IMG/VR virus record: IMGVR_UViG_3300045988_180880
Location: 32,001-96,000 of that record
DNA length: 64,000 nt
Direction: 5' to 3' (one strand)
Origin: a virus
This document shows positions 36,819-55,050 of this stretch, piece by piece. Below the pieces are notes generated by a model that saw only the letters and a list, made by a program, of their open reading frames with translations, was not told the DNA's origin and searched no databases. The position numbers and the translations under genes were made by a program. The first letter of the stretch is position 1, and each line of letters opens with the position of its first letter.

Positions 36819-36976
36819 AATGGTTTCCTAATTGGTACGTTAGGTGTGAATCCTAGAATATATAATGTGAATTATGTATTAAATTTTGTGTATTGCTGGG
36901 AGGATCTAAATATCTAATCAGCAGTTGAAGATAATTTATTTATACGAATTTATAATAATTAAAATACTAGAATATT

Positions 36977-37582
36977 ATGAAGGTACTTAGAATTAAACAC
37001 TTCTCTTCTCTAGTATCTACACAACCAATTTTTAATAGATCTGAACATATGAAGCAACTACATGCTCAAGGAAGATATCAAGGTACTTCTAAAATTGGTA
37101 TATGGAATTCTAGTGAAGAGAAGAGACAAAGAATGGCATTACTTGGAGCTAAAAATGCTTTAGATAAAAATTCTAAAGGTTATGGATCTGAGTATGCAAT
37201 GAGAGTAAATAATAGAATATTACTTGGAAATAAATTTCAAGGAGAAACTGGTTATTTATATTTTGTAAGATATCCGAAATCAATAAAAATTGGATTTTCA
37301 AAGAATTGGGAACGTAGAATTAATACCCAATTGATGAATCAATTTCAAATACTTGGTGGAAAAGTTGTAGCAATTATATCAGGACCTACCAATGAACTAG
37401 CTGATCTCGAGTTTGATACTTTTATTAAATTTCAAAAATATACTAAACTGTCTAAAGACGAAACAAGGTATACTGAATTTTTAGATGATAAAATTAGAAA
37501 AGACGTATATAACTTTTTGGATGATAAAGTAAAAAATAATAGTAATTTGAAATTTATTATACAAAATAAAATAAACCTTTGA
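36977..37582 (+). CDS. T5orf172/GIY-YIG-superfamily-like putative homing endonuclease (intron ORF 1)
   Basis: GYLYFVRYPKSIKIGFSKNWERRI core. Confidence 0.5.
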   Translation: MKVLRIKHFSSLVSTQPIFNRSEHMKQLHAQGRYQGTSKIGIWNSSEEKRQRMALLGAKNALDKNSKGYGSEYAMRVNNRILLGNKFQGETGYLYFVRYPKSIKIGFSKNWERRINTQLMNQFQILGGKVVAIISGPTNELADLEFDTFIKFQKYTKLSKDETRYTEFLDDKIRKDVYNFLDDKVKNNSNLKFIIQNKINL

Positions 37583-38364
37583 AATTTATGACACAAGAAG
37601 AAATTAAATACCATAATCAACTATGGTATTATAAAACATATAATCAACTTATAGATAAATGTATACAATTGGAGTCTGATGGTTATCCAGAAGATATGTA
37701 TACAGAGGTTCACCATATATTACCTAAATGTATGGGTGGAACAAATAAGGAAGATAATTTAGTAAGAATGCCTGTTAGATATCATATAATGGCTCATTTA
37801 TTACTTGTAAAAATATATCCAAATATAGGAAAAATAATATATGCAGCTAATATAATGATTGTCGGAAATAAAAATACAAGAGCTGAACGAAATCTAGCTT
37901 TAAATCAATTCTCTACAAAAACTATTAGTCAATTAAGGGAAACTATGGCAAATTATCAGAAAGGAAAACCTTTATCAGAAGAACATAAGCAGAAAATTTC
38001 TTTTGCATTAAAAGGAAAAGTACATTCTGAGGATCATAATAGAAAAGTTTCTGAATCTAAAAAAGGAAAACATTTATCAAAAGAAACGAAAGATAAGTTA
38101 AAGTTGTCCCATTTAGGTAAAAGTCTTTCTGAAAGTCATAAAAAAGCTATTGGAAACGCTCTTCGTGGAAGAAAAGGAAAACCTCTCTCTGAGGAAGTAA
38201 GAGAGAAAATTTCTAAAAATAATAAAATGTCAAAAGCTGTTCAGGATTATAATGGTGTAATTTATAATAGTATCTCTGATTGTTCTAGAAAATTAAATAT
38301 TCCAGATAGTACTATTAGTTATTGGATCAAAAAACATCCTGAAAAAGGTTTTAAATTCGTATAA
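37579..38364 (+). CDS. HNH homing endonuclease with NUMOD3-like repeats (intron ORF 2)
   Basis: EVHHILPKCMGGTN..N HNH motif; repeated S-E-E-H-K-x-K-I-S-x-x-x-K-G-K units; close paralog of 45778..46629. Confidence 0.75.
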   Translation: MKFMTQEEIKYHNQLWYYKTYNQLIDKCIQLESDGYPEDMYTEVHHILPKCMGGTNKEDNLVRMPVRYHIMAHLLLVKIYPNIGKIIYAANIMIVGNKNTRAERNLALNQFSTKTISQLRETMANYQKGKPLSEEHKQKISFALKGKVHSEDHNRKVSESKKGKHLSKETKDKLKLSHLGKSLSESHKKAIGNALRGRKGKPLSEEVREKISKNNKMSKAVQDYNGVIYNSISDCSRKLNIPDSTISYWIKKHPEKGFKFV

Positions 38365-38511
38365 ATAAATTAATCACAATTCAACGACTATGGACAAAAC
38401 CAGGCTAGTGTTGTGATAACCTAGTTTTAACCATGGAAAATATAGTCTTTGCAAGATAGAATTATATCTTGGGTAATCAATATAAGTTGGCTAAAGTATT
38501 GATTATCACAG

Positions 38512-39163
38512 AGTTAATCGCCAACCCTCTTTGCACGAGTACAGTATGTTTAGCATGAAGCTCAAGCTTAATGATTCATATGCAATTGAATTTCCCATCG
38601 CTGTTTGTGAGCCTTTAAATGCTGACTTCGATGGCGATACGTGCTCCATACAACTCGTCCCTCCAGAGGCAGCAGAAGAAACATATCTTAGGATGTCGCC
38701 AAGATATGTGAATGTTTATAAGAAAAATAATGAACCTATATTTAAATTTAACCACGAAACTTTGAATGGTCTTGCAGTTGCATCAGAATACGTATTTGAT
38801 GATCAGGATGAATTAGAAAATCCTAGACACTTTTATACGGATTATGTGCAACTTCTTAAAGATGTTGAAGTAGAGAAAAAAATTAAAGTAGGTACTCCAA
38901 TTACATTCACTGGAAAAATTGGAAATGTTGAATATACCGCTAAAACAACAAGTTATGGTAGACTTCGAATTTCTAAGATTCTAGACGCAGATATGGATGA
39001 AATTGGGATTTTATCTAATAAATATGAACGTATCAGTGCTAAAGCTGCTTCGAAATTATCTTTATATCTTAATCAATTTCCTGATGGAGTTGAGAAAAGA
39101 AAAGCATTACAGAAGCTTGCCCTCAGAATTGTTACATTAGCAGGAGTAGTTACGTTTGACTAT
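38512..39163 (+). CDS. rpoC: RNAP beta'-like subunit, exon 2 (catalytic NADFDGD)
   Basis: junction gives IVL|VNRQPSLH; NADFDGDT at ~38620-38643; ends ..VVTFDY. Confidence 0.8.
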
Positions 39164-39350
39164 AAAATTGTAGCTTAAGAAATAAATTATCTTGAGAAAA
39201 TTCTATTAAAATGCTAGAACTATTAGAATAAAGTAGAATTAGCATCTCTATCTCTTAGATAAAATAGAGTTCAACGACTAAATATAGAACTGTATGAAGT
39301 TATATACAGATGATATAGTCTATCTAAATTAAGAAGATTTAGAATTAATG
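39164..39350 (+). ncRNA. group I intron, family A (187 nt)
   Basis: P1 ctaU / Gtag (short); P aatgctagaac, Q aattagcatc, R gttcaacgactaaa, S gatgatatagtct; ends attaatG. Confidence 0.7.
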
Positions 39351-39464
39351 AAAACGTTATATGCTGATTGTGATACTGAGACGTATAAAAGAATATGTAA
39401 TGTTGCAGATTCAAAAGATCTTACTGATAAACAAAAACTTCTTATAATGACTGAAGAATTTCGT
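39351..39464 (+). CDS. rpoC: RNAP beta'-like subunit, exon 3 (114 nt)
   Basis: KTLYADCDTETYKRICNVADSKDLTDKQKLLIMTEEFR; in frame with exons 2 and 4. Confidence 0.7.
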
Positions 39465-39637
39465 TAATTATTTTTAGCGACTTAATAATTTTAATTATTA
39501 AGAAAAATAAGAGAATTGCTAGAACTATATATAAAATACTGAACTAGCATCAAGTAGTATTAACTATTTGTTCAACGACTATGTACTTATTATAAAATGA
39601 TATAGTCTACCTTTATTGATTGAATAAAGAGTTAGTG
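39465..39637 (+). ncRNA. group I intron, family A (173 nt)
   Basis: P1 tcgU|t / aGcga; P/Q/R/S present; ends agttagtG. Confidence 0.7.
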
Positions 39638-39742
39638 AAATATGAAAAAGAAGTTTCTGAAAGTTTTAGTACAGATCTTAAAAATGAATTAGCACGTGCA
39701 AATCGTGTAAAACTAAACTCGATTGTAGCAATGTCAATGCCT
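39638..39742 (+). CDS. rpoC: RNAP beta'-like subunit, exon 4 (105 nt)
   Basis: KYEKEVSESFSTDLKNELARANRVKLNSIVAMSMP. Confidence 0.7.
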
Positions 39743-39923
39743 AAAGAAAAAATTGGGCAATATAATGAAAATTAACTCATTATATTAAAATTATGTTAAT
39801 TGCTGGAACTGTAAGAATTATAGAATTAGCATCAAGTAAAAGCTTAAATTATTTGTTCAACGACTATATACATAATATTAAAGATATAGTCTAAACTTAT
39901 ATAAAGTAATATAAGTATCATTG
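39743..39923 (+). ncRNA. group I intron, family A (181 nt)
   Basis: P1 tgccU|aa / ttGggca; P/Q/R/S present; ends atcattG. Confidence 0.75.
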
Positions 39924-40042
39924 CAATTTATTGTTAGTGGAGTTGATGAAAAACCTGTTATTACACGAGGAACACTTTTGTCAGGATATACAGAAAAAGA
40001 CTATCAGCTTCATTCAATCGAGAATAGATCACTACAGTCAAT
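39924..40042 (+). CDS. rpoC: RNAP beta'-like subunit, exon 5 (119 nt)
   Basis: QFIVSGVDEKPVITRGTLLSGYTEKDYQLHSIENRSLQS(at-); DYQLHSIENRSL aligns with E. coli QYFISTHGARKGL. Confidence 0.7.
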
Positions 40043-41332
40043 TTTAGTTTACCTTTAGTTGACTATAAATTCTACTAAATGCTGGAATTCTGTGAAGAGA
40101 ATCAGCAGTTAATACAAAACTAAGTCATAAAGTTGTGAAATTATTATGGCAGGGAAATTGGAAAAATTTATATTAACAGATAAAGAAGAAATAGATTCTT
40201 TTAATAAATTAATTAGTTTAAATCCGCAACCTGGAAAATCTTTTGATAATTATTTAAAAGTTATCAATCGCGGTCATTATAAAATATGTTTATATAAATG
40301 GTTTACTGGATTAGATGAAGATATTTATGTAACTCAATCTCATTTATATAAACATTTGAATGATAATAGCAAATTTGTTAAAATAACACCTCAAATTTAT
40401 TATGATGTTATAGTATTAGGTTTGACTAATATTAATGATCGTCCTAAATGTGAAATATGTGGAAAAATATCTAGATGGGATGGATTTAAAAGAGGTTATT
40501 TAAAAACATGTTCAGAAAAGTGTTCTGAACTATTAAGAGATAGTAGAATGTCTGAACAAGGATTAAAAAATTTTCACAAATTACAGACAAAAGAGTCTAG
40601 AGAAAAGCAGAGGGAATCACATAAAGGATGGAGTCCTTCAGAAAAACAAAGAAAACAAATTTCTCAACGAATGAAAGATTTCTATAAGACACCAAAAGGA
40701 TTAGAAATGAGAAAGAATTCTAGTAGGTTATTATCTGAAAGAAATATTGAAATGATGAAAGATAAGTCTTATTATAACAAACGAACAGGAGGTAAATATA
40801 AAACAGGTATATATCATTCTAAAGTTTGGAATAAAGATTTTAATTATGATTCATCTTGGGAAATTAATTTTATAAAATTTTTTGAAAAGCAGAAATGGCA
40901 AAGTGAGATAAAAATATTTGATAGGTGTTTAGATTCTATTATTTATAAATGGGATGATGGAACTGAACATAGATATCTACCTGATTTTTACATCAAATTT
41001 AAATCAGGTCTTCAAGTTGTTATTGAGTTAAAACCAGCAAATCTAATAGAAAAAGATCCGGTGATTTTAGCCAAAAGAATAGCAGCGAAGAAATACTTTG
41101 CAAAAAGAAATATAAAATATATTATATTATCTGAAAATGAACTATTCACAACTAGATATATAAAGTATACTAAATTATCTGAAAGTTTAGGAATAGTTAA
41201 TTCATTTAATATTTATGATTACATAGTTTAATTAAGATTTAGTTTTGTATTAATTCAACGACTATATGTAGAAACTTATGTGAATAAGAAAGGTATAGTC
41301 TAAGTCTTTATGAATAAATAAAGATATCACTG
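40043..41332 (+). mobile_element. group I intron, family A, with endonuclease ORF
   Basis: P1 agtcaaU|t / aGttgact; P aaatgctggaattc, Q gaatcagcagt, R attcaacgactat, S aaggtatagtct; ends tatcactG. Confidence 0.75.
40146..41231 (+). CDS. putative homing endonuclease (NUMOD3-like repeats + PD-(D/E)XK-like C-domain)
   Basis: SEKQRKQISQRMK repeats; YLPDFYIKFKSGLQVVIELKP resembles a PD..(E/D)xK nuclease core. Confidence 0.5.
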   Translation: MAGKLEKFILTDKEEIDSFNKLISLNPQPGKSFDNYLKVINRGHYKICLYKWFTGLDEDIYVTQSHLYKHLNDNSKFVKITPQIYYDVIVLGLTNINDRPKCEICGKISRWDGFKRGYLKTCSEKCSELLRDSRMSEQGLKNFHKLQTKESREKQRESHKGWSPSEKQRKQISQRMKDFYKTPKGLEMRKNSSRLLSERNIEMMKDKSYYNKRTGGKYKTGIYHSKVWNKDFNYDSSWEINFIKFFEKQKWQSEIKIFDRCLDSIIYKWDDGTEHRYLPDFYIKFKSGLQVVIELKPANLIEKDPVILAKRIAAKKYFAKRNIKYIILSENELFTTRYIKYTKLSESLGIVNSFNIYDYIV

Positions 41333-41347
41333 AAAAGTTAGTGGAGT
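41333..41347 (+). CDS. rpoC: RNAP beta'-like subunit, exon 6 (15-nt micro-exon)
   Basis: aaaagttagtggagt; supplies (I)KVSG(V). Downstream P1 agtgg(a)gU|t / aGcccact is homologous to the intron-5 P1. Restores E. coli-like spacing before SGYLTR. Confidence 0.55.
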
Positions 41348-41816
41348 TAGAAATAAAACCTGAACTTTATGGTAGCCCACTATAAATAACAAAGAAATGC
41401 TGGAAATAATAATAGACAGACGAAGTCAAAGTTTTTTAAAATCAGCAACTTATCAACGAGAAAAAGATGAATTATTAGTACTTTTTAAAACTTAATGTGT
41501 AGATTTGAAAAATTCTTAGAAACTCTAAGGCTTGTTGGAAGTATAGCAAGAACTATACTCTCTGGAATTGAAGAATATAGAAAAATTCAAGAAACAAAAG
41601 CTTATCGAGAGAATAAGAAAAATAATGTAAAATATCTACCAAGACCAAAAAGGTATAATAGTAGAAGAAAACAAAGATAAGATCAACGACTATGTATTGT
41701 TAGATTAAGGAAACTCTTTAATCATGATATAGTCTAATCTTACGTGAATAAGCGTAAGCAGGATAAGAGATTAGAAGACGTCTTTTAAAAATTATAATAT
41801 CTAATCTCTTTGAATG
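41348..41816 (+). mobile_element. group I intron, family A, with 61-aa basic ORF remnant
   Basis: P aaatgctggaaat, Q aaatcagcaac, R gatcaacgactat, S atgatatagtct, P9 cttacg../..cgtaag, extra 9-bp hairpin agagattag/ctaatctct; ends ttgaatG. Confidence 0.6.
41495..41680 (+). CDS. small basic intron ORF (61 aa), function unknown
   Basis: ORF track; sits in the loop position used by endonuclease ORFs in sibling introns. Confidence 0.35.
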   Translation: MCRFEKFLETLRLVGSIARTILSGIEEYRKIQETKAYRENKKNNVKYLPRPKRYNSRRKQR

Positions 41817-42106
41817 GCCTAGTTCAGGATATTTAACACGACAAATTTCATTCCTTTTAAATAGTTTTATATATCATGAAGGAGAAGATCCAGAAAACAC
41901 AGGATTACTCATTCCACGATATAAAGCATTAGGAAGAACAGCACCGAACGGAAAGGTATACCCAGACAAACCAATAGTAAATGGTTCTGAGGATGATCTT
42001 GTTCCAGTACGTTCGATTGTTACAAAAAGAACTGGAGATTTAAGCACAATTACACCAGACCTGATTGGAAAGAAATTTAGTTTTACTGATGGAGCAGCAA
42101 TAGGAT
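41817..42106 (+). CDS. rpoC: RNAP beta'-like subunit, exon 7
   Basis: (V)PSSGYLTRQISFLLN...VRSIVT...GAAIG(t--); SGYLTR is a universal beta' block. Confidence 0.7.
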
Positions 42107-42344
42107 AAGTTTAGAATTGTCCATAAAAGTTTGTTATAGACTTTTATTAAACTTCAAGAATTGCTGGGAGTATTATCGCTATTTATTCTTCGCCTTGTAA
42201 AATAAAAAACTTAAGGCGAAAATTATATAGCGAGAGATAATCAGCAAAAGATATAGAAAATATATCTTCTTAACGACTATGTGTGAAGGAGAGATTAAAA
42301 CACTCTTAAGATATAGTCTAGTAATCTATATAAAGTTTGTATAG
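42107..42344 (+). ncRNA. group I intron, family A (238 nt)
   Basis: P1 ggaU|aa / ttGtcc; P aattgctgggag, Q taatcagcaaa, R cttaacgactat, S aagatatagtct; ends gtatagG. Confidence 0.7.
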
Positions 42345-42392
42345 GTTTAATCGTATCATTTGCTACATCATTAACTGAAGGTACTACTCAAT
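42345..42392 (+). CDS. rpoC: RNAP beta'-like subunit, exon 8 (48 nt)
   Basis: (C)[15 protein letters not shown](t--), equivalent of the trigger-loop block IAAQSIGEPGTQLT. Confidence 0.7.
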
Positions 42393-42573
42393 TAAAATTG
42401 GTTGCTATATAAAATAGTATTATATAGAAAATCTTTGTAAAATGCTGGAAATTAAAAAAAAATAATCAGCATCAAGGAATATATTAATAACTTGTTCAAC
42501 GACTATAAAAAAAGATCTTATTAATTTAAGAATGGTATAGTCTAAATTCATTCTAAAAGGATGAATAATCTTG
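42393..42573 (+). ncRNA. group I intron, family A (181 nt)
   Basis: P1 caaU|t / gGttg; P/Q/R/S present; ends aatcttG. Confidence 0.65.
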
Positions 42574-42602
42574 CAGCATTAGGTCTGAAACATGGTGGCC
42601 AT
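42574..42602 (+). CDS. rpoC: RNAP beta'-like subunit, exon 9 (29 nt)
   Basis: (S)ALGLKHGGH, equivalent of E. coli MRTFHIGG. Confidence 0.7.
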
Positions 42603-42762
42603 AGATTATATTTGTGGCGTATAATTTCAATAATTGCTGGAAATATTTGTAATAAAATAAATCAGCAGGGGAAAATAAAATCCCTTCAACGACTATAAAT
42701 GAAACTAGATGAATTTCTGGATGATATAGTCTAACTTATAAATTATATTATAAGAGTAATTG
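42603..42762 (+). ncRNA. group I intron, family A (160 nt)
   Basis: P1 gccaU|a / tGtggc; P aattgctggaaat, Q aaatcagcagg, R cttcaacgactat, S gatgatatagtct; ends agtaattG. Confidence 0.75.
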
Positions 42763-43002
42763 GAACGTGTGCTTAATACAGAAGGAAATCTTAAAGCACC
42801 AAAACAATGTGAGTTTAGAGAGGAAGGCAGATGGATTTACCTAAAAGTTAGAGGAGGAGAATTAAAATATCCGAGACCTAATAATTGGGTAGGAGTAGGT
42901 AAGACAAAATTTGAGAAAGGTGACTTAATAGGGTCAGCTTATAATACTACCTCGCCTATTTACAAGTTGAACGCTCTCATAAAACTTATGCGTGCCAAAG
43001 GT
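42763..43002 (+). CDS. rpoC: RNAP beta'-like subunit, exon 10
   Basis: ERVLNTEGNLKAP...LIKLMRAKG; the ORF-track tail EYKIAV* is intron. Confidence 0.7.
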
Positions 43003-43195
43003 GAATATAAAATTGCCGTCTAAGGAAGTAATTCTCTAGATAATTAGTAAGTAAATTTGGTGAAGCTAGTAACTAGTAATACCAAGCCTTGGATTAATAA
43101 TTAGAATCTTAAGGTATAACGAATAAAGACTTACCAACTTTTTTATAAGTTGAATTTATATTCTAAACTATAATAAGAAAATTATAGATAAATTG
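43003..43195 (+). ncRNA. group I intron, family B copy 1 (193 nt)
   Basis: P1 ggU|ga / ttGcc; P3 agtaagt/acttacc, P4 tttggt/accaag, P7 gaata/tattc; ends ataaattG. Confidence 0.75.
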
Positions 43196-43804
43196 AGTGA
43201 TGGCACAAGATATTTTGAGAAGGATAATGTTATTGTATCTGATTGTTATGCTTTGAATGATGGGGTTATTCATTACAAAGAGACCAAGGAAGGTGATACT
43301 GAAGTTTGGATTGGTGATACTCAGTATGACTATAATCCAGAGTGTATGTATTATTTTCCTGATGGTACAGAGATTAAGAAATTTCAAAGAATTTCCAGCG
43401 GAGTTTGCAATATGAATCATGTTATTGCAGAGTTGGGTTCTAATATTAATGATATTTACTTAATCTTTAGAAAACAATTTTATACTTTAACAGATGGAGG
43501 ATTTGTATCAACTGGTTTATCAGATCTTCATGCTACACAGGAAGAACTTATTGAACTTTTATTCACAGGTTTAACTGATGTAGGTGTAGATCCAGAAACA
43601 CAGAAGATTGAAGACATCCAATATCTAGGTACTCAAAGTGGTGTTTTAAATAAGAAGTCATTCTATACTGTTTTGTCTTACGGTTATAGCTCTAGAGTTG
43701 TGTCTAAAGCTCTCAAAGGGGAATTAAATCTTTCTGGTGACGTAATGACAGAAACTATATTAGGATTACTTTTAAATAATAAACTTGACGAAAAACAAAA
43801 GTAA
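43196..43804 (+). CDS. rpoC: RNAP beta'-like subunit, exon 11 (C-terminus)
   Basis: SDGTRYFEKDN...; total spliced frame 3351 nt + stop. Confidence 0.75.
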   Translation, partial: SDGTRYFEKDNVIVSDCYALNDGVIHYKETKEGDTEVWIGDTQYDYNPECMYYFPDGTEIKKFQRISSGVCNMNHVIAELGSNINDIYLIFRKQFYTLTDGGFVSTGLSDLHATQEELIELLFTGLTDVGVDPETQKIEDIQYLGTQSGVLNKKSFYTVLSYGYSSRVVSKALKGELNLSGDVMTETILGLLLNNKLDEKQK

Positions 43805-44123: not shown

Positions 44124-44474
44124 ATGAACGATAATTATTATAAAATTATACTATCATATGAAATTCCATATAACATTTTAGACAGTCAAGATCCGAATAT
44201 TATACAGGCGAGAGAAATATTATATGAAAAACTTAGAGATGATATTTTTCCGAAGTATGAAAGATTTTCGGTAAAGCTTACATTACATCAACTTAAAGAT
44301 AACTTCAATTATCTTGTTACTTATGAAGCTTTTTTTAGATCTCTTGATGGTAAACCTATGGGAGAATATGTAGAGGCTCGTAGCTTAAAAGATAGTATTA
44401 AATCAGAATTAGAAACATTTTTTAATTCAGTAGATTGCGAATATAAGCAATTAAATATAAAACCATTAGTATAA
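44124..44474 (+). CDS. hypothetical protein between beta' and beta genes
   Basis: ORF track; stop overlaps the beta start (TAATG). Confidence 0.5.
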   Translation: MNDNYYKIILSYEIPYNILDSQDPNIIQAREILYEKLRDDIFPKYERFSVKLTLHQLKDNFNYLVTYEAFFRSLDGKPMGEYVEARSLKDSIKSELETFFNSVDCEYKQLNIKPLV

Positions 44475-45336
44475 TGAGTAATTTTAATCAATATTTCAGA
44501 AACACTGGAGCAAAAATTATAGTAGATCGATTTTTTAATAAAGTTGATGCATATAATCCTAAAGTAAAAGTTGGAAAAATTGGATATTCATTTATAGAAG
44601 AACCTCCTCAACCAGCTTCTTACTATATTGAAAATGGATTAACTGCTACACATAAAGTAAGAATTGAATATACAACTATAACGGATGGGAAAGAAGATCC
44701 TGAAATGAAGTATGCAGAGTTCGAAGTTCCTAAAGAAATTGATGGTGCATTTATTATAGAAGGCGCTTATCGTATTTCAACTAATCGAATGGGATCTGAT
44801 TATGACTGTCGTATTAAAATGTCTGGTACAGGAGATTATAAAGTTAATTTCGACTATGATAGAGTTTACGATATTCAAAAACAGATTCTGAAGATAAAAA
44901 GAATTAATCCGGAACTTGGAATTGCAGATAAACCAATTGATATAAAGTTTGAAGACATTGATAAATACTTGGAAACTGATAAAAAGGAGATCTTGAAGTT
45001 AACTGAAAGACAAACCAAGAAATTAATGATCAAACTTGACTTGGATTATAAACCTGAATATATTACACAAAAACTAATACAGGAATGTTTGGCCTTTGGA
45101 GATGATAGACTAAAAGACTTAATCATTGATAAAACATTAGAATCAGTTCCTAACAGTTTTATGCAATATATTTTTAGGAATAATAATGGACGTAACTATT
45201 TTGCAGCTAGACGAAGAATTACATCATATTTTACAAAGTATGGTAAAATTCAAGATCAAGTTACTGCAATTAGTACTTTGTGTTTTAGATTTTTTAAAGG
45301 AAGTAGCGATAACAAAGGAGATTCAGGAGTACAGGT
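44474..45336 (+). CDS. rpoB: RNAP beta-like subunit, exon 1
   Basis: ends ..GDSGVQ(gt-); the ORF-track tail is intron. Confidence 0.75.
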
Positions 45337-45544
45337 ACAAAATATAAAGGTGCCGTTTTATGGAGAAATCTATAAAATTATTAGTAAGTAAATTCGGTGA
45401 AGGGTAAAACCTAATACCGAACTAAGGATAATGAAAATTTTTAGTGTAACGAATAAAGACTTACTAACTTATAATTAAAATATAAGTTAAATTTATATTC
45501 TGTTCTATATAAGTAGAACTTTATTTATATAGTTAACAATAAAG
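45337..45544 (+). ncRNA. group I intron, family B copy 2 (208 nt)
   Basis: P1 ggU|ac / gtGcc; P3 agtaagt/acttact, P4 ttcggt/accgaa, P7 gaata/tattc; ends caataaaG. Confidence 0.75.
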
Positions 45545-45635
45545 CCCCCCTGGAGTAAATTCCATTAACTTAGAGGCAATCTCCCAAAAAATTGTTATTC
45601 CTGCGAGTGTAGCCTTTAATTCGACTTTTACAGAT
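45545..45635 (+). CDS. rpoB: RNAP beta-like subunit, exon 2 (91 nt)
   Basis: (V)PPGVNSINLEAISQKIVIPASVAFNSTFTD. Confidence 0.7.
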
Positions 45636-46763
45636 TTAGATTAAGTCTGATTATAGAATATTTTTTATAATAAAAACTTTGAGAATTGCTAGAAAACTAG
45701 TGATAGTTAATTAGCAGTATAAAATAAGTATAATTATTTATGCGTTGAGAGGAAAAATTTTTGAAAGGAATTTAAGAATGACGCATGTAAAAGAAATTAA
45801 ATACCACAATCAATTATGGTATTATAAAACGTACAATCAGTTAATAGATAAGTGTATACAGATGGAGTCTGAAGGTTATCCTGAAGATATGTATACAGAG
45901 GTTCACCACATACTACCTAAATGTATGGGTGGGACAAATGATGAGTCTAACTTAGTAAGAATGCCAGTTAGGTATCATATAATGGCACATTTATTGTTAG
46001 CACAAGTATATCCAGAAATAAATGGATTAGTTTATGCAGCACATGTTCTAGTCTCAGTGAATAATTCAGTTGTATCTACGAATACAGCTGCATTAATTAG
46101 AGAAGATTTTAAAAAGTCTAGAATAGGATCTCATCATTCAGAAGAGACAAGGAGAAAAATTTCTGAATCTAACAAAGGAAAAGTTATCCCTAGAGAACTA
46201 GTAGAGAAGTTAAGATCTATTAATTTAGGGAAGAAACATTCACTTGAAACGAGAAAGAAGATGTCAGAAGCTAGAAAAAGAGAGAATTTATCCGAGGAAA
46301 CACTAAGAAAAAGATCTCTAGCGTCCTCTGGAAGAAAACATTCTGAAGAAGTCAAGAAGAAGATTTCTATAGCTAATACTGGAAAAATTTTTAGCGAAGA
46401 ACACAGACAAAACATATCTAAAAGTAAGATGGGAAAAGGACATCCACATACTGAAAAAACAAAGAAAATGATGTCTGATACTAGCGTTAAGAGAAAAAGA
46501 GTTCAAGGCCCTGATGGAATAATTTACGAATCTATGAAACTTTGTTGTGAGAAATTTAATATTCATAGAGATACCCTTCGAAGCTGGATTAAAAATCACC
46601 CAGAAAAAGGCTTTAAATTTATTGATTAAAAAATTTATCATTACTATAAATTCCTTTCAATGTAATGAAATTTAATACTTATTTTATATTCAACGACTAT
46701 GTACAAAGAGGGAAATTCCTTAAGATATAGTCTAGTGATAAAGTAAAAAACTTTATCTATTCG
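45636..46763 (+). mobile_element. group I intron, family A, with HNH endonuclease ORF
   Basis: P1 cagaU|tta / taaGtctg; P aattgctagaaa, Q aattagcagt, R attcaacgactat, S aagatatagtct; ends ctattcG. Confidence 0.8.
45778..46629 (+). CDS. HNH homing endonuclease with NUMOD3-like repeats
   Basis: start moved to ATG 45778 (the track starts at an upstream TTG); first ~80 aa are near-identical to 37579..38364. Confidence 0.75.
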   Translation: MTHVKEIKYHNQLWYYKTYNQLIDKCIQMESEGYPEDMYTEVHHILPKCMGGTNDESNLVRMPVRYHIMAHLLLAQVYPEINGLVYAAHVLVSVNNSVVSTNTAALIREDFKKSRIGSHHSEETRRKISESNKGKVIPRELVEKLRSINLGKKHSLETRKKMSEARKRENLSEETLRKRSLASSGRKHSEEVKKKISIANTGKIFSEEHRQNISKSKMGKGHPHTEKTKKMMSDTSVKRKRVQGPDGIIYESMKLCCEKFNIHRDTLRSWIKNHPEKGFKFID

Positions 46764-47132
46764 TTAGTCGATATTGCCGACACTCCTATAAATAATAATA
46801 CTAACCTCCAGAACTCACTTACAGTTTCATGTCATATTACAGACGATGATGTACTATTTGATGTATATGATACAAATTTCGTAAAAATAACAATAAAATA
46901 TATAGACTATCTTAATAAAAAAGTAGCTGCCAGTGAGTATGTAGATTATGAAACTAACACTTTAAAGCCAGATAAAGATGGTCAAGTGGAGGTTAAGTAT
47001 AGGATGAAAAGAAAGATGGTTCCAGTCGAAGAAGTGGAATTGATCGATTTACATCCTGATTACAGATTGTCTAGCACAACTCGAAGAATCCCATTTGTGA
47101 ATTATACAGATAGTGTCAGAATAAGCATGGGT
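46764..47132 (+). CDS. rpoB: RNAP beta-like subunit, exon 3
   Basis: LVDIADTPINNNTNLQNSL (E. coli CPIETPEGPNIGLINSL) ... RRIPFVNYTDSVRISMG. Confidence 0.8.
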
Positions 47133-47326
47133 ACTAATTTATGTGCCGCTTAAAGTAGTAATATTTTAAGTAACCAGTAAGTAAATTCGGTGAAAGAGTG
47201 ACTGAGCTTTAATACCGAGCTAAAGATAATAGATTTCTTTAGTGTAACGAATAAAGACTTACTAACCAAAATAAAGGTTAAATTTATATTCTAAACTATA
47301 ATTAAAAGTATATTATAGAAGATTTG
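47133..47326 (+). ncRNA. group I intron, family B copy 3 (194 nt)
   Basis: P1 ggU|ac / gtGcc; core as in other B copies; ends aagatttG. Confidence 0.8.
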
Positions 47327-48266
47327 ACATCAATGCTTAAACAGAGTATACCTCTGATTAATGCGGAGCGTGCACTTGTTGACACTGGAAGGAATGAAGA
47401 GTTGAAAGATAATATATTAAATGAAAAGTTCAGTTATCCAGAGGGTAAGGTAAAGGATATAACAGAGGATGAAGTTATAATTGAATTGCCTGATGGAACT
47501 GAGACAAATATTTTACGAAGAACAGCGATTCAGAGTATAAATGACGTGGCGGTATTTACAGAGCCTAAAGTAAAAATCGGCCAAAAAGTAAAACAGGGAG
47601 ATATTATAACTGGTGCAGTTGGACATACTCCTGAAACATATAAGGCCGGCGTTAATGCTCTGGTACTTTTCCACGCCTATTATGGTTTAGTAAATGAGGA
47701 TGCTTTGGTGATATCAGAATCATTTGCAAATCGTATAGCATCTTATAGTATAATTGACTTAATGATTAATGTTAAGAGTACTAGTGCTATTAAGTGGATC
47801 GCCCCTATTGGAACAAAGGTTAAATCAAAAGATGCAGTAGTGACATTATATAAAGCTGTTCGTCTTGATGCTATAAATCAGGCACTACAAGAAAAACTCG
47901 GAGGACTTTTCGGAGAAGGACATGATCTCTCCGAATATACTATCGAGGATCATTTAGTTGTGCCTAATAATATAGACGAGGCAATAGTTTCTGATGTAAT
48001 GATACAGGAAATGAAGAAACCTAAAATTCCTAAATCAGTAAAATCACCTGACTATTCATTTACACATACCTCTCAGGATGTTATAGATGAATATGAAAAA
48101 ACAAAATCTCGAAAAATTATCTACGAGAAATACCCAGAGTATATTGCAGCTGATACATTAGATCCTATTAATATGGATCCAGAAGCGTATAAGATTGTGT
48201 ATACTGTTCGCGTGAGACTCATCAAAAGAACTGTGGGAATGATCGGAAGTAAAATTACCTCTAGAT
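47327..48266 (+). CDS. rpoB: RNAP beta-like subunit, exon 4
   Basis: junction SMG|TSMLKQSIPL aligns residue-for-residue with E. coli LMGANMQRQAVPT; ends ..GSKITSR(t--). Confidence 0.8.
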
Positions 48267-49666
48267 TTAATATAAGTCTAGTTAATTTTCAATAAAAGTT
48301 AACTAAATTTTGTGAATTGCTGGAAAAATCTAAATAAAATAGATGGATAGATAAATCAGCAGTATATTTATGTTTAATTATGAGTAAAATATGAGCGATA
48401 TTAATTTTTAATAATAAATTGAACAATGAGCGAAGAAGAAATATTAATACATAATCAAAATTGGTATCGCAAAGTATATTTCCAAATAATTGATCGCGCT
48501 AGATTAAGAGGTTTGGATAAAAATAAAATTGATTTTTATGTAGAAATTCATCATATACTACCTAAATGCCTAGGAGGAACTGATGAAAATGATAACTTAG
48601 TTGCATTAACTTATAGAGAACATATAGTTTGTCATAAATTATTGTGTAAATTATACCCAGATAATTACTACTTACATTCTTCTATATATTTAATGCTACA
48701 TATTAAAATAGAAAATGGGAAGAAGGTAAAAACATTTTCTAATTCTAAAGAGGCAGAAGAATATAAGCTTTTCTTGAAAACTCATAAAAAGCCTCTTTCT
48801 GAGGAATCTAGAAAAAAGATGTCAGAATCGCATAAAGGTTGGAGTCCATCTGAGGAACATAGAAGAAGAGTTTCAGAAGTACATACTGGAAAAATCGTTT
48901 CAAAAGAAACCAGAGAAAAATTAAGAAAGGTTAATCTGGGAAGACATCATACAGAAGAATCCAAAAGAAAGATATCAGAGTCACGTAGAGGAAAGAAATT
49001 ATCTTCAGAACAAAAAGAAAAAATTTCAAAATCACTAAAAGGAAAAAGATTAGGAATCTCTCCAACTAAGGAACAAGTAGAAAAAGCAAAACAAACTCGG
49101 ATACTCCATGGAGGGTGGGTACATACAGATGAAAGTAAAAGAAAAATTTCAGAATCTTTAAAGAAGACGAATTCTGTCTCTGAACATATATCAGAAGATA
49201 TAAGAAATTCTTTAAGGAAAAAGTTTGGGTTCGCTGTAAGATATACTGATATTAATACTGGTGAAATTTACGAATTTGATTCAATTACAAAAGCTGTTAG
49301 TGAACTTAAAGAGTTAAGTATTATGAATAAAAGCTTTCATTTTATAAAGCGTTCTTGTACATTAAATATTAATGGATTTGAATTTATCAATGAAACAAAT
49401 GAAATGATTCAAAAGAAAGTTCAGGGGCCTGATGGAATTATTTACAATAGTATATCTGAATGTGCTAGACAATTGAATACAGTTAGATCTGTAATTATTG
49501 ATTGGATTACTAATCATCCAGAAAAAGGATTTAAATACATTTAAAAAATCAATCGCTCATTGATATAAAAATAATTAAATAAAATATATTCAACGACTAT
49601 GTACAAAGAAGGAGTATTTCCTTAAGATATAGTCTAGACTTTACTTAATTAAGTAAAGTATTATCG
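48267..49666 (+). mobile_element. group I intron, family A, with HNH endonuclease ORF
   Basis: P1 ctagaU / Gtctag; P aattgctggaaaa, Q aaatcagcagt, R attcaacgactat, S aagatatagtct; ends tattatcG. Confidence 0.8.
48426..49544 (+). CDS. HNH homing endonuclease with NUMOD3-like repeats
   Basis: EIHHILPKCLGGTDENDN; many SEExRxKxSExxKG repeats; C-terminal WITNHPEKGFKYI as in the two paralogs. Confidence 0.75.
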   Translation: MSEEEILIHNQNWYRKVYFQIIDRARLRGLDKNKIDFYVEIHHILPKCLGGTDENDNLVALTYREHIVCHKLLCKLYPDNYYLHSSIYLMLHIKIENGKKVKTFSNSKEAEEYKLFLKTHKKPLSEESRKKMSESHKGWSPSEEHRRRVSEVHTGKIVSKETREKLRKVNLGRHHTEESKRKISESRRGKKLSSEQKEKISKSLKGKRLGISPTKEQVEKAKQTRILHGGWVHTDESKRKISESLKKTNSVSEHISEDIRNSLRKKFGFAVRYTDINTGEIYEFDSITKAVSELKELSIMNKSFHFIKRSCTLNINGFEFINETNEMIQKKVQGPDGIIYNSISECARQLNTVRSVIIDWITNHPEKGFKYI

Positions 49667-49680
49667 ATGGAGGCAAAGGT
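49667..49680 (+). CDS. rpoB: RNAP beta-like subunit, exon 5 (14-nt micro-exon)
   Basis: atggaggcaaaggt gives (Y)GGKG; the join ITSR-YGGKG-VVSAVKPDDMMP matches E. coli GRHGNKGVISKINPIEDMP. Confidence 0.75.
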
Positions 49681-49871
49681 CAAATTACAAGGCCGTTTAA
49701 GGTAGTAATATCTTAAATAATCAGTAAGTAAATTTGGTGAAGGAAGTAAAATTCTAATACCAAGCTAATAAAATATAATAATTTATTAGTATAACGAATA
49801 AAGACTTACTAGGTTGAAATAATACCTAAATTTATATTCTAATTTACTAGGATAATCTAGTAATAGTAATG
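49681..49871 (+). ncRNA. group I intron, family B copy 4 (191 nt)
   Basis: P1 ggU|c / gGcc; P3 agtaagt/acttact, P4 tttggt/accaag, P7 gaata/tattc; ends agtaatG. Confidence 0.75.
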
Positions 49872-50645
49872 GTTGTAAGTGCTGTGAAACCCGACGATAT
49901 GATGCCAATAATGGTAGATAAGGATGGGAAACAAAGACGTTGCGAAGTAGTGATGAATCCATACAGCACAATAAATCGTAAAATTCCGAGTGTCCTTATG
50001 GAATTACAACTCGGAAATATCGCTCACAAATTACACGATCTTGTAGATAATTATAAGAAAACAAAAACAGGGCAAAAGAAGATTAAGCCCCTTCTTGAAA
50101 CATATTACCCCGGACGTTTTACTAGTATGGATGTAGAAGAAATTATAGAACGTCATAATACTAGTAAAATCGAGGATATGTATTATTTCAATGTTGGCTG
50201 CTTCTCTACTAAATTTACTCCAGAACTTGTAAATCAATGGGCTGAAGATTTAGGTGTAGAAAGTCAGAGTAAAATTCTTATGCCTGAGACTGAATTAACA
50301 GATCTCGATGAATTAAAAGAAAATCTAGAACCAGAAGAATATGATAAATTAGTTTCTGGAATGTCTGGTAAGTTTAGAGAAGTAGATAAACCTTTGCAGG
50401 CGGGATTCATGACCCTTGAAGAGTTATACCATATACCATCATATAGTAATAAGGTTACATCAAGTCTATATGGCGTAGATATTAATGCTAAACGAGATGA
50501 ACCTATACTTGGAAAGGGACGCTATAGACAGACAGGACAGAAAATTGGTGAGATGGAATTGGCCGTATTACTTTCTAGAAATGCGGATCAATTTATCAGC
50601 GGTGCTAGAAAAGACACTGCGAAGGAAGATAATCAAATGTTCCTT
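49872..50645 (+). CDS. rpoB: RNAP beta-like subunit, exon 6
   Basis: VVSAVKPDDMMP..VVMNPYS...GQKIGEMELAVLL (E. coli GGQRFGEMEVWALE)...NQMFL. Confidence 0.8.
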
Positions 50646-50833
50646 AAATTATTGAGGCTAGTATCAATACAAACTGATACTAGAAAATATCTTAAATTGC
50701 TGGAACAAAGTAGAAAATCAGCATCAAGCTGTTGTTTTATAATTAACAGCTTGTTCAACGACTATAGTAGATACTAAAGAATACTTATTTTAGATAATAT
50801 AGTCTTACTTTAAATAAAATTAAAGATGAATAG
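50646..50833 (+). ncRNA. group I intron, family A (188 nt)
   Basis: P1 cctU|a / tGagg; P aaattgctggaac, Q aaatcagcatc, R gttcaacgactat, S gataatatagtct; ends atgaataG. Confidence 0.7.
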
Positions 50834-50862
50834 AATAACTTATTAGGTCTAGGATTAACCGT
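50834..50862 (+). CDS. rpoB: RNAP beta-like subunit, exon 7 (29 nt)
   Basis: NNLLGLGLT(gt-), equivalent of E. coli NVLLKEIRSLGI. Confidence 0.65.
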
Positions 50863-51067
50863 AAACTATTTGCGGTTTTAAATTATATTAAAATGCTAGA
50901 ATATTTATAATAAATATATTAGCAAAATATCTTACCTTAGATTATATCTAAGAAAAAGATATTCTCAACGACTAAATATATAACTAAGTTTGAAATATAA
51001 TTTAGATGATATAGTCTGAACATAGATTAATAATAATCTAGTAACGTAATTGAGTAGATGATAAAGG
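50863..51067 (+). ncRNA. group I intron, family A (205 nt)
   Basis: P1 aaccgU / Gcggtt; P aaaatgctagaat, Q atattagcaaa, R ctcaacgactaaa, S gatgatatagtct. 3' end placed at the only G (51067) that keeps the frame open. Confidence 0.6.
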
Positions 51068-51164
51068 ATTTAACCAAGGTGGATCAAGTCTGAAAAAGGA
51101 ATTGAATGACTTAAAGATTAAATTCCGTCGTAAAAATAACCTATTAAACATGGGAGGTAATTGA
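51068..51164 (+). CDS. rpoB: RNAP beta-like subunit, exon 8 (C-terminus)
   Basis: (V)FNQGGSSLKKELNDLKIKFRRKNNLLNMGGN*; total spliced frame 3177 nt including stop. Confidence 0.6.
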
Positions 51165-54860: not shown

Positions 54861-54867
54861 TAAATAG

Positions 54868-54941
54868 TGGGCCCAGCCAGGCTTGAACTGACGACCTTCT
54901 GATTATGAGTCAGCTTCTCTAACCAACTGAGATATGGGCCC
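54868..54941 (-). tRNA. tRNA with CAU anticodon (Met, or Ile if lysidine-modified)
   Basis: minus strand gggcccatatctcagttggttagagaagctgactCATaatcagaaggtcgtcagttcaagcctggctgggccca; 7-bp acceptor, GTTCAAG T-loop. Confidence 0.85.
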
Positions 54942-54959
54942 TGTTATAATTATGTCTAG

Positions 54960-55050
54960 TATCGGGAGGGGAGCTCGAATCCCCACGGGTCTTATTTTTC
55001 TGCCCAAAACATTTTAAGTGTTTCTTGTCTACCTATTCCAACATCCCGAC
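54960..55050 (-). tRNA. class II tRNA-Leu (UAA anticodon) with long variable arm
   Basis: minus strand gtcgggatgttggaataggtagac..aaacaCTTAAAAtgttt..long variable region..ggggattcgagctcccctcccgata; Leu-type D-loop GGAAUAGGUAGAC. Confidence 0.75.

What the first reader, a model, noticed from the sequence alone, without database searches (positions are those of the whole stretch)
44474..51164. RNAP beta gene split into 8 exons by 7 group I introns of two families
Exons 44474-45336, 45545-45635, 46764-47132, 47327-48266, 49667-49680, 49872-50645, 50834-50862 and 51068-51164 give a stop-free 3177-nt frame (1058 aa). Rebuilt motifs:
- LVDIADTPINNNTNLQNSL (E. coli CPIETPEGPNIGLINSL).
- SMG|TSMLKQSIPL (LMGANMQRQAVPT, residue for residue).
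- ITSR|YGGKG|VVSAVKPDDMMP (GRHGNKGVISKINPIEDMP).
- GQKIGEMELAVLL (GGQRFGEMEVWALE).
The introns sit inside the most conserved active-site segments, as expected for homing elements. 52.5% of the locus is intron. Family A and family B introns alternate along most of the gene.
Basis: partly seen in the sequence, partly recalled or inferred. Interest (0 to 1): 0.9.

Follow-up and report, generated by a model that had tools for sequence, protein, structure and literature searches.

The report
Phage RNA polymerase gene with seven introns
The gene for the beta subunit of a huge gut phage's own RNA polymerase is cut into eight pieces by seven small self-splicing (group I) introns. This is a real and unusually dense case of a known phenomenon, and close relatives of the phage carry different sets of these introns.

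Summary
More than 100 uninterrupted homologues (up to 82% identical, full length) match it residue for residue across junctions 1-6.

One correction: intron 7 ends at 51052, not 51067. Exon 8 is therefore 51053-51164 and the protein is 1063 aa. A relative has an uninterrupted stretch that is 80/80 nt identical to the predicted ligated exons across introns 6 and 7.

All seven inserts behave as group I introns:
- The exon ends in a U that pairs with a G in a site-specific P1 helix.
- The last intron base is G.
- The P2-P9 core, with the P3/P7 pseudoknot, is strongly supported by covariation in both families (A: introns 1, 3, 5; B: introns 2, 4, 6, 7).
- Introns 2 and 4 carry HNH/NUMOD3 endonuclease genes in the P6 loop.

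Rfam's group I model does not reach its threshold for any of them.

Relatives with 92-100% identical exons carry different intron sets, about 15 insertion sites in all. The neighbouring beta' gene holds at least ten more intron cores.

Group I introns are already reported in huge gut "Jug" phages and in a jumbo-phage RNA polymerase gene. This is a new, extreme member of a known kind. Splicing itself is inferred, not shown.

The parts
44474..45336 (+). beta exon 1 (aa 1-287, plus 2 nt of codon 288)
   Evidence: The start ATG directly follows the stop of the upstream 116-aa gene, as in relatives L002 and L003. Junction 1 is continuous with the homologues. An empty-site allele is present in 14 related loci.
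45337..45544 (+). intron 1, family A group I intron, 208 nt, no ORF
   Evidence: R1 match of 153.9 bits. P1 is GGU|AC / GU[G]CC with the U.G wobble at the splice site, and the intron ends in G. RF00028 gives only 9.4 bits. The intron is also present in L026 and absent from 14 other loci.
45545..45635 (+). beta exon 2 (91 nt)
   Evidence: Continuous with the homologues on both sides.
45636..46763 (+). intron 2, family B group I intron, 1128 nt, with an endonuclease ORF in the P6 loop
   Evidence: P1 is CAGAU|UUA / UAA[G]UCUG, 8 bp, and the intron ends in G. The 3' half matches R2 (window 46649-46734). The P6 stem UAUAAAAUAAGUAU / AUACUUAUUUUAUA flanks the ORF (read; checked in alignment A5).
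45745..46629 (+). intron-2 ORF: HNH/NUMOD3 homing-endonuclease-like protein (294 aa from TTG 45745; a likelier ATG start is at 45778)
   Evidence: Pfam NUMOD3 E=1.3e-17, four repeats. HNH scores 18.0 bits, below its cutoff of 21.4.
46764..47132 (+). beta exon 3 (369 nt)
   Evidence: Continuous with the homologues.
47133..47326 (+). intron 3, family A group I intron, 194 nt, no ORF
   Evidence: R1 match of 173 bits, with identical copies in 6 related loci. RF00028 gives 21.4 bits, E=0.0012, full model length. The unconstrained minimum-energy fold reproduces P1, P2, P3, P4, P5, P6, P8 and P9, z=-3.7.
47327..48266 (+). beta exon 4 (940 nt)
   Evidence: Continuous with the homologues. A single tblastn alignment to the rpoB of Staphylococcus phages S6 and PALS_2 spans aa 427-818 and so crosses junctions 3, 4 and 5.
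48267..49666 (+). intron 4, family B group I intron, 1400 nt, with an endonuclease ORF in the P6 loop
   Evidence: P1 is CUAGAU|UUA / UAA[G]UCUAG, 9 bp, and the intron ends in G. The 3' half matches R2 (window 49537-49636). The site is empty in 8 loci.
48426..49544 (+). intron-4 ORF: HNH/NUMOD3, I-HmuI-like endonuclease (372 aa)
   Evidence: Pfam NUMOD3 E=2.4e-15. I-HmuI_NUMOD-like scores 27.5 bits (cutoff 27). NUMOD1 and HNH are weak.
49667..49680 (+). beta exon 5, a 14-nt micro-exon (ATGGAGGCAAAGGT, part of the conserved YGGKG motif)
   Evidence: It restores ..ITSRYGGKGVVS.., which is near-invariant in the homologues. Relatives with an uninterrupted site read TCTAGATATGGAGGTAAGGGTGTTGTA.
49681..49871 (+). 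intron 5, family A group I intron, 191 nt, no ORF
   Evidence: R1 match of 152.8 bits, with identical copies in 7 related loci. P1 is GGU|C / G[G]CC, and the intron ends in G. RF00028 gives no match.
49872..50645 (+). beta exon 6 (774 nt)
   Evidence: Continuous with the homologues.
50646..50833 (+). intron 6, family B group I intron, 188 nt, no ORF
   Evidence: R2 match of 96.3 bits. RF00028 gives 18.6 bits, E=0.018, full model length. P1 is CCUU|AA / UU[G]AGG. Fold z=-4.1. The same 5' junction string occurs in 9 IMG/VR contigs. An empty-site allele is 100% identical in L030.
50834..50862 (+). beta exon 7, a 29-nt micro-exon
   Evidence: It restores ..FLNNLLGLGLTV... It lies within the 80/80 nt identity to the uninterrupted L030 sequence.
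50863..51052 (+). intron 7, family B group I intron, 190 nt, no ORF (3' end corrected from 51067)
   Evidence: R2 match of 64.4 bits. RF00028 gives 11.6 bits. P1 is AACCGU|AAA / UUU[G]CGGUU, 9 bp, and the intron ends in G at 51052. The corrected junction gives LTVVDDKGFNQGG as in P0001 and matches the L030 DNA exactly. The 5' junction string occurs in 8 IMG/VR contigs.
51053..51164 (+). beta exon 8, including the TGA stop (start corrected from 51068)
   Evidence: The next gene starts at 51166, the same synteny as in L002 and L003.

Best explanation
The stretch 44474-51164 is one gene for the beta subunit (1063 aa) of the phage's multisubunit RNA polymerase. It is interrupted by seven group I introns.

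Mechanism (inferred). The gene is transcribed as one precursor. Each intron folds into the group I core:
- P1 holds the 5' exon against an internal guide sequence.
- The P3-P8 and P4-P6 domains and the P3/P7 pseudoknot form the guanosine-binding site.
A free guanosine then attacks after the exon's last U, and the freed exon attacks after the intron's last G. This ligates the exons exactly, including the 14-nt and 29-nt micro-exons. Only the fully spliced mRNA encodes a working beta subunit.

The introns. Five are ORF-less minimal ribozymes of 188-208 nt. Introns 2 and 4 carry HNH/NUMOD3 (I-HmuI-type) endonuclease genes in the P6 loop. These enzymes are presumed to cut or nick intron-less alleles of co-infecting relatives, so that repair copies the intron in (homing). 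That would account for the patchwork of occupied and empty sites among near-identical phage genomes.

Shown here: the gene identity, the exact junctions, the ribozyme anatomy with covariation, the endonuclease domains, and presence/absence polymorphism.
Inferred: splicing in vivo, autocatalysis, and the route of mobility.
For: Gene and junctions:
- The spliced product matches more than 100 uninterrupted homologues over 99-100% of its length, up to 82% identity.
- Junctions 1-6 are exact and junction 7 is corrected.
- Uninterrupted empty-site alleles exist in close relatives for sites 1, 4, 5, 6 and 7. One is an 80/80 nt match across introns 6 and 7.

Ribozyme anatomy:
- P1 has a U.G wobble at every 5' splice site and every intron ends in G. 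The guide sequences differ from site to site.
- Family A: 18 distinct copies, 96.2% of cells paired against 79% when shuffled, 27 of 41 pairs with compensatory change, slid controls 29-45%.
- Family B core: 57 distinct copies, 97.6% paired against 73% shuffled, 351 compensatory cells, slid controls 32-44%.
- The unconstrained minimum-energy fold recovers the modelled helices, with z=-3.7 and -4.1.
- RF00028 gives full-length sub-threshold alignments, and in small slices it is the best hit for introns 3 and 6.
- The two best family-B model hits in a 14-kb T4 locus both fall in the nrdB group IA intron.

Endonucleases and independence of assemblies:
- HNH/NUMOD3 ORFs are present in introns 2 and 4.
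- The same intron junctions occur in 8-9 independent IMG/VR contigs.

Precedents:
- Group I introns averaging 206 nt, 18.5 per genome, occur in 360-402 kb gut Jug phages. Metatranscriptome reads supported splicing for 37 of 76 (PMC12880540).
- An HNH-bearing group I intron sits in the RNA polymerase beta gene of phage PhiPA3 (PMC11620839).
Against: - No RNA or protein data exist for this locus.
- Rfam RF00028 never reaches its gathering score (50 bits). The best score is 21.4 bits and intron 5 gives no match.
- The introns are only 19-30% G+C with short helices, so some may not self-splice without protein help. In Bastillevirinae, four of eight validated introns spliced only in infected cells (PMC11878797).
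- P7 is invariant, so it gains no support from covariation.
- The covariation alignments were fitted to the proposed structures by the covariance models, which biases pair counts towards them.
- HNH itself is below Pfam's cutoff in both ORFs.
Confidence: 0.9

Rival explanations
1. The inserts are removed from the RNA, but not autonomously. Some or all of the minimal AU-rich introns would be degenerate ribozymes that need a phage or host protein, for instance a maturase activity of the HNH proteins, or help from a sister intron.
For: - Intron G+C is only 19-26% in the ORF-less copies and the helices are short.
- RF00028 scores are far below threshold.
- Two family-B copies in the neighbouring beta' gene seem to lack a P8 hairpin (hand reading).
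- In Bastillevirinae, four of eight spliced introns worked only in infected cells (PMC11878797).
Against: - All core helices, the U.G wobble and the terminal G are intact in all seven beta introns.
- Azoarcus-size group I introns of about 200 nt are known to self-splice (my knowledge, not checked here).
- This is a refinement of the main explanation rather than a true alternative to it.
Confidence: 0.3
2. The gene is a decaying pseudogene, or a polymerase expressed as separate polypeptides. Split beta genes exist in phiKZ- and AR9-type phages. On this view the inserts are simply intergenic spacers or insertions that are never removed.
For: - Split beta and beta' genes exist in jumbo phages (my knowledge). 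The nearest cultured relatives are such phages (AR9 polymerase chain 7S00_C).
Against: - Exons of 14 nt and 29 nt cannot be genes.
- Three junctions split codons, at phases 2, 1 and 2.
- The exon fragments keep one frame-consistent ORF that is 92-100% identical to relatives, which carry different or no interruptions.
- More than 100 homologues are single uninterrupted ORFs.
- The inserts carry conserved ribozyme cores with compensatory substitutions.
Confidence: 0.03
3. The interruptions are assembly chimeras or misjoins in a metagenomic contig.
For: The window seems to be metagenomic: it has no GenBank phage match. The intron families are repeated, and repeats can confuse assemblers.
Against: - Identical copies of introns 3 and 5 at the same positions occur in 6-7 other loci.
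- The intron 6 and 7 junction strings, with the same 216-nt spacing, occur in 8-9 IMG/VR contigs from several datasets.
- The paralogous introns are only about 74-78% identical to each other by mean column identity, too divergent to collapse in assembly.
Confidence: 0.01

Closest known systems
Group I introns of 'Jug' huge gut phages (Sci Adv 2026, PMC12880540)
   Same: - Huge phage contigs (relatives up to about 404 kb) of about 29% G+C, very prevalent in metagenomes.
- Many small ORF-less group I introns (paper mean 206 nt; here 188-208 nt), together with HNH and PD-(D/E)XK endonuclease genes.
- Essential genes are fragmented.
- Splicing of such introns was confirmed by metatranscriptome reads for 37 of 76.
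   Different: - I could not show that the window belongs to a Jug phage, because no sequences or supplementary tables were available.
- The paper's main text describes terL, nrdD and DNA polymerase as split, not the RNA polymerase genes. It uses RpoC only as a marker.
- It reports 18.5 introns per genome. Here 17 intron cores lie in about 15 kb.
PhiPA3 gp210 intron in an RNA polymerase beta gene (Science 2024, PMC11620839)
   Same: - A group I intron with an HNH endonuclease interrupts a conserved segment of a jumbo-phage RNA polymerase beta-type gene.
- Its endonuclease targets the intron-less allele of a co-infecting relative.
   Different: - That case has one intron. Here there are seven in one gene, five without any endonuclease gene.
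- The phage lineage and the polymerase are different: this beta is a single 1063-aa chain.
T4 td, nrdB and nrdD group IA introns
   Same: - Family B shares the J3/4-P4 string AAUUGCUGGAAA and the P7 strings UUCAACGACUA and GAUAUAGUCU with the T4 nrdB and td introns.
- The ORF is looped out of a peripheral stem.
- The two best family-B model hits in a 14-kb T4 locus fall in the nrdB intron.
   Different: - Those scores are weak (18.4 and 17.3 bits, E 0.18-0.29).
- The ORF-less family-B copies are much smaller than the T4 ribozyme cores.
- The subgroup was not formally assigned, because no subgroup models were on hand.
I-HmuI / I-BasI type HNH nicking endonucleases of the SPO1 and Bastille introns
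   Same: The intron-4 ORF passes the Pfam I-HmuI_NUMOD-like cutoff. Both ORFs have NUMOD3 repeats and an N-terminal HNH-like motif.
   Different: - The HNH domain is below Pfam's cutoff in both ORFs.
- Activity and target are untested.
Intron-rich genes of crAss-like Zeta-group phages (PMC7886860). Also Twort orf142 with three introns and AR9 with introns in several genes (both from my knowledge)
   Same: Several self-splicing introns occur in single essential phage genes. [quoted passage not shown]
   Different: - Here a single 3.2-kb coding sequence has seven introns and its neighbour has at least ten.
- Micro-exons of 14 and 29 nt separate adjacent introns.

Membership tests
Group I self-splicing intron | The 5' splice site follows a U that forms a U.G wobble in P1 with an internal guide sequence. 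| tested here: met
   Met for 7 of 7 introns at the splice sites fixed independently by protein homology. P1 is 4-9 bp and the guide sequence is specific to each exon context. In family A, P1 columns 8-32 are U.G in 16 of 18 distinct copies.
Group I self-splicing intron | The last intron nucleotide is G (omega-G). | tested here: met
   Met for 7 of 7. For intron 7 the homology-corrected end at 51052 is a G. The U/G rule also resolves the sliding ambiguities at junctions 2, 3, 6 and 7 (read).
Group I self-splicing intron | Conserved core of paired regions P3-P8 and P4-P6 with the P3/P7 pseudoknot, supported by covariation. | tested here: met
   - Family A: P1-P8 are 96.2% paired, 27 of 41 pairs show compensatory change, and 0 of 500 shuffles reach the observed values.
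- Family B: P3, P4, P6, P7 and P8 are 97.6% paired with 351 compensatory cells.
- P7 pairs in 98-100% of copies but is invariant, so it has no covariation support.
- Caveat: the alignments were fitted by the covariance models.
Group I self-splicing intron | A match to Rfam RF00028 at the curated gathering score (50 bits). | tested here: not met
   There is no hit at the gathering score or at E<=10 over 7.8 kb. In slices of 221-441 nt the scores are: intron 3 21.4 bits, intron 6 18.6, intron 7 11.6, intron 1 9.4, intron 5 none. The matches that appear span the whole model and align P1, J3/4-P4, P7 and P9 correctly.
Group I self-splicing intron | Guanosine-dependent two-step transesterification, in vitro or in vivo. 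| not testable with these tools
   This needs RNA work. The only indirect support is published splicing of similar small introns in Jug phages (PMC12880540).
Mobile (homing) intron | An intron-encoded homing endonuclease. | tested here: inconclusive
   Introns 2 and 4 have HNH/NUMOD3 ORFs. NUMOD3 and I-HmuI_NUMOD-like are above their cutoffs and HNH is below. Introns 1, 3, 5, 6 and 7 have no ORF.
Mobile (homing) intron | Presence/absence polymorphism at the same site among close relatives, with intact empty sites. | tested here: met
   - Sites 1, 4, 5, 6 and 7 are empty in 2-14 related loci with near-identical flanks.
- Relatives with 92-100% identical exons show breaks at about aa 288, 319, 323-328, 432, 441, 746, 754, 759, 787, 790, 802, 985, 1017, 1027 and 1040.
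- L002 and L003 have no beta intron and L001 has one.
Bacterial-type multisubunit RNA polymerase beta subunit | Homology to Rpb2 domain 6, with the conserved beta motifs restored by splicing. | tested here: met
   - Pfam PF00562 E=2.2e-14.
- PDB RNA polymerase beta chains E about 1e-24, and AR9 polymerase chain 7S00_C 2e-14.
- tblastn alignments to annotated rpoB genes of phages S6, PALS_2 and AR9 run across junctions 3-5.

The most novel reading that the evidence does not exclude
The RNA polymerase genes of this huge gut phage lineage may be a standing battleground of mobile ribozymes. They would then be the most intron-dense protein-coding locus known outside organelles, with 17 intron cores in about 15 kb and about 15 alternative sites in beta across the population.

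On this reading:
- The endonuclease-bearing introns act as weapons between co-infecting strains, as shown for PhiPA3 gp210.
- The ORF-less 190-nt introns spread on their own or in trans.
- Family A, always found after 5'-GGU with an invariant GCC in its guide sequence at about a dozen different sites, colonises new sites by reverse splicing rather than by endonuclease homing.
Probability: 0.25. Interest if true: 0.8.

Novelty: new member of a known kind. Interest (0 to 1): 0.58.

Why it matters
- **Annotation.** Gene callers report this essential gene as six or more 'hypothetical' fragments. Exact exon maps are needed to annotate these very common gut phages and to use RpoB and RpoC as phylogenetic markers.
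- **Density.** Seven introns in one 3.2-kb coding sequence, with ten or more next door, is well above the densities that the papers I could read called unprecedented. Those were crAss Zeta with 14 introns per genome and Jug phages with about 18 per genome.
- **A natural experiment.** Adjacent introns are separated by 14-nt and 29-nt exons, and near-identical genomes carry different intron sets. This allows tests of splicing order and fidelity, of how ORF-less introns move, and of whether intron endonucleases mediate competition between phage strains.
- **Detection.** Rfam's group I model misses these minimal AU-rich introns at its curated threshold, and intron 5 at any threshold tried.

Tried and rejected
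- **Rfam at gathering threshold** on the whole window found only a tRNA. At E<=10 over 7.8 kb there was no group I hit. RF00028 appeared only in slices of 221-441 nt, and below threshold.
- **GenBank phages.** Megablast of the locus and blastn of introns 3 and 6 found no match.
- **MAFFT alignment of whole family-B introns** (A4) misaligned P1 and P2, so I dropped it. I modelled only the B core (A5 and R2) and checked P1 of each intron separately.
- **Inteins** are rejected. Every insert has 2 to 56 stop codons in each of the three reading frames.
- **Group II introns** are rejected on size (188-208 nt) and anatomy.
- **My dinucleotide-shuffle script** timed out and was replaced by strand folding.
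- **Papers.** The AR9 genome paper could not be read and the Jug paper's supplements are not held. I therefore could not check whether the Jug intron tables already list these RNA polymerase introns.
- **Cluster look-up** gave no organism names.
- **The beta' exon map** was not resolved.

Full report
**Setting.** The window has 25-33% G+C, about 29% overall, and no nucleotide match in GenBank phages. The region 35.7-51.2 kb lies on the + strand and encodes the two large subunits of a bacterial-type RNA polymerase. The finding concerns the second gene, 44474-51164.

**The observation.**
It matches Pfam RNA_pol_Rpb2_6 (E=2e-14) and RNA polymerase beta chains in the PDB (E about 1e-24), as well as the AR9 phage polymerase chain 7S00_C (2e-14).
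- The decisive test was a protein search with the spliced product. It returned more than 100 uninterrupted ORFs of 1040-1066 aa that cover 99-100% of the query. The best was 82% identical, on contigs of up to 404 kb.
- In a MAFFT alignment, junctions 1-6 are continuous residue for residue..GVQV|PPGVN....FTD|LVDIADTP....SMG|TSMLKQ....ITSR|YGGKG|VVS....MFL|NNLLGLG...
Moving the 3' splice site to G 51052 (..GTAATTG|AGTAGATGATAAAGGA..) gives LTVVDDKGFNQGG, exactly as in the closest homologue. The CDS becomes 3192 nt and the protein 1063 aa.
- Related locus L030 has an uninterrupted sequence that is 80/80 nt identical to the predicted ligation product across introns 6 and 7. Empty-site alleles also exist for sites 1, 4 and 5.
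- Introns make up 3499 of 6691 nt, 52.3%.

**Are they group I introns?** The splice sites were fixed by homology alone, so the ribozyme rules can be tested independently.
- All seven 5' exons end in U and all seven introns end in G.
- In each intron, a G lying 9 to 16 nt into it forms a wobble pair with that U. This sits within a P1 helix of 4-9 bp whose guide sequence is complementary to the local exon. Examples are CAGAU|UUA / UAAGUCUG for intron 2 and AACCGU|AAA / UUUGCGGUU for intron 7.
- Two sequence families are present. Family A (introns 1, 3, 5) has AAAUUYGGUGAA ... AACGAAUAAAGACUUACUA ... UUUAUAUUCU. Family B (introns 2, 4, 6, 7) has AAUUGCURGAA ... UUCAACGACUAU ... GAUAUAGUCU.
- I wrote a P1-P8 model for family A by hand, built covariance model R1 and aligned 69 copies (18 distinct) from the window and related contigs. 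In that alignment 96.2% of cells pair, against 79% after shuffling and 29-45% with slid partners. Twenty-seven of 41 pairs show compensatory changes.
- For family B I modelled the core P3, P4, P6 and P8, with P7 as a pseudoknot. Among 57 distinct copies, 97.6% of cells pair, against 73% shuffled and 32-44% slid, with 351 compensatory cells.
- P7 (GAAUA/UAUUC in A, GACUA/UAGUC in B) pairs in 98-100% of copies but is invariant.
- An unconstrained energy fold of intron 3 reproduces P1, P2, P3, P4, P5, P6, P8 and P9 (z=-3.7). Intron 6 folds with z=-4.1.
- In introns 2 and 4 a long P6 stem brackets the ORF. The ORFs are HNH/NUMOD3 proteins and one passes the I-HmuI_NUMOD-like cutoff.

It fails at the curated threshold.
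- Nothing is found at gathering score or at E<=10 over 7.8 kb.
- In small slices the model aligns end to end to intron 3 (21.4 bits), intron 6 (18.6), intron 7 (11.6) and intron 1 (9.4), but not to intron 5.
- I therefore rest the group I assignment on the defining structural features, not on the Rfam score.

**Relation to known introns.**
- Family B shares its J3/4-P4 and P7 strings with the T4 nrdB and td introns.
- With filters off, the two best R2 hits in a 14-kb T4 locus are the two halves of the nrdB intron, and the fourth-best hit is the td intron. The scores are weak.
- No subgroup models were available, so the subgroup is not assigned.

**Population picture.** A tblastn of the spliced beta against related contigs shows exons at 92-100% identity but different interruption patterns.
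- Breaks occur near aa 288, 319, 323-328, 432, 441, 746, 754, 759, 787, 790, 802, 985, 1017, 1027 and 1040.
- L035 and L020 are 99% identical over aa 760-1063 and lack introns 6 and 7.
- L006 lacks introns 4 and 5 but has others.
- Among more distant relatives, L002 and L003 have none and L001 has one.
- The window's own arrangement is not an assembly artefact. Identical copies of introns 3 and 5 occur in 6-7 other loci. The intron 6 and 7 junction strings, 216 nt apart, occur in 8-9 IMG/VR contigs.
- About a dozen distinct family-A insertion contexts all end in GGU, and the guide-sequence columns that pair with the two G's are an invariant CC in all 18 distinct copies. Family B guide sequences vary with the site.
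- The sites lie in better-than-average conserved protein segments (mean percentile 74%, P about 0.012). Introns 3, 6 and 7 are in the top decile and intron 1 is not.

**Mechanism.**
- *Shown:* the gene identity, the exact junctions, the ribozyme anatomy, the endonuclease domains, and site polymorphism with intact empty sites.
- *Inferred:* the precursor is spliced by the standard guanosine-initiated two-step reaction at all seven introns. This includes correct retention of the 14-nt and 29-nt micro-exons; skipping the 14-nt exon would shift the frame. It is also inferred that the HNH proteins drive homing.
- *Open:* whether the 19-26% G+C ORF-less introns splice without protein help.

**What is known already.**
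- Group I introns in phage genes are classical.
- An HNH intron in a jumbo-phage RNA polymerase beta gene is described for PhiPA3 (PMC11620839).
- High intron densities are reported for crAss-like Zeta phages, with up to 14 introns per genome and an MCP gene in five fragments (PMC7886860).
- For 360-402 kb gut Jug phages, 2513 introns are reported, 18.5 per genome, with a mean of 206 nt and splicing confirmed for 37 of 76 (PMC12880540).
- The window fits a Jug-like phage in G+C, in the contig sizes of its relatives and in prevalence (a 737-member protein cluster). I could not prove this.
- The Jug paper's main text does not describe split RNA polymerase genes and its tables were not available.

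**Verdict.** It is a new and extreme member of a known kind, not a new kind.

Noticed in passing
window 35686-43804 (+): The neighbouring beta' gene carries at least ten intron cores. Its exon-1 ORF is 35686-36831 and the NADFDGD catalytic motif lies in ORF 38531-39178.
- Family B cores sit at 38383, 39273, 39574, 39859, 41257, 41685, 42272, 42498 and 42688. One family A intron is at 43003-43195 (..MRAKG|SDGTRYF..).
- Intron ORFs: 36977-37582 (no Pfam match), 37579-38364 (NUMOD3 plus the I-TevI DNA-binding domain) and 40146-41231 (TnsA-like PD-(D/E)XK).
- Together with beta this makes 17 intron cores in about 15 kb. The two models found no others in the 64-kb window at E<=0.001.
- The exon map is not resolved.
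   Followed up: partly
window 35686-36831, and proteins P0121-P0240: All 120 best homologues of beta' exon 1 are 359-435 aa long. So the first interruption of beta' seems to be nearly universal in this phage clade, unlike the patchy beta introns. The exact window ORF is a 737-member cluster found on contigs of up to about 382 kb.
   Followed up: partly
window 39504-39609 and 39788-39893: Two family-B introns in beta' have only 8-9 nt between the P3 3' strand and the P7 3' strand. That leaves no room for a P8 hairpin, which is normally part of the group I core (hand reading). Whether they still splice unaided is unexplained.
   Followed up: no
L005 (IMGVR_UViG_3300035283_000119) 4833-6700: In a related contig, a small gene just downstream of a 784-aa ORF is cut by one family A core and five family B cores within about 1.7 kb. 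That is an even higher local intron density than in the polymerase genes. The gene was not identified.
   Followed up: no
L008 7183-7540; L006 9163-9521; L015, L018 and L046 likewise: Close relatives have a family B intron at about aa 432 directly followed by the family A intron at aa 441. The two sit in a gap of about 357 nt with a micro-exon of about 27 nt between them. The window lacks that B intron.
   Followed up: partly
alignment A3 (18 distinct family A copies from the window and loci L004-L047): Every family A copy sits after 5'-GGU. The exon part of P1 is only 3 bp, and the guide-sequence columns that pair with the two G's are an invariant CC in all 18 copies. About a dozen different exon contexts are involved. 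This is compatible with spread by reverse splicing or with selection after insertion. The two were not distinguished.
   Followed up: partly
window 54867-54941 (-) and 54959-55050 (-): Two adjacent tRNA genes, tRNA-Met (CAT) and tRNA-Leu (TAA).
   Followed up: no
L039:1372-1534, L009:1475-1637, L024:1678-1840: The family A model cross-detects a family B intron at 38 bits. The two families therefore share one overall architecture, differing mainly in the P7, J3/4 and P4 sequences.
   Followed up: no
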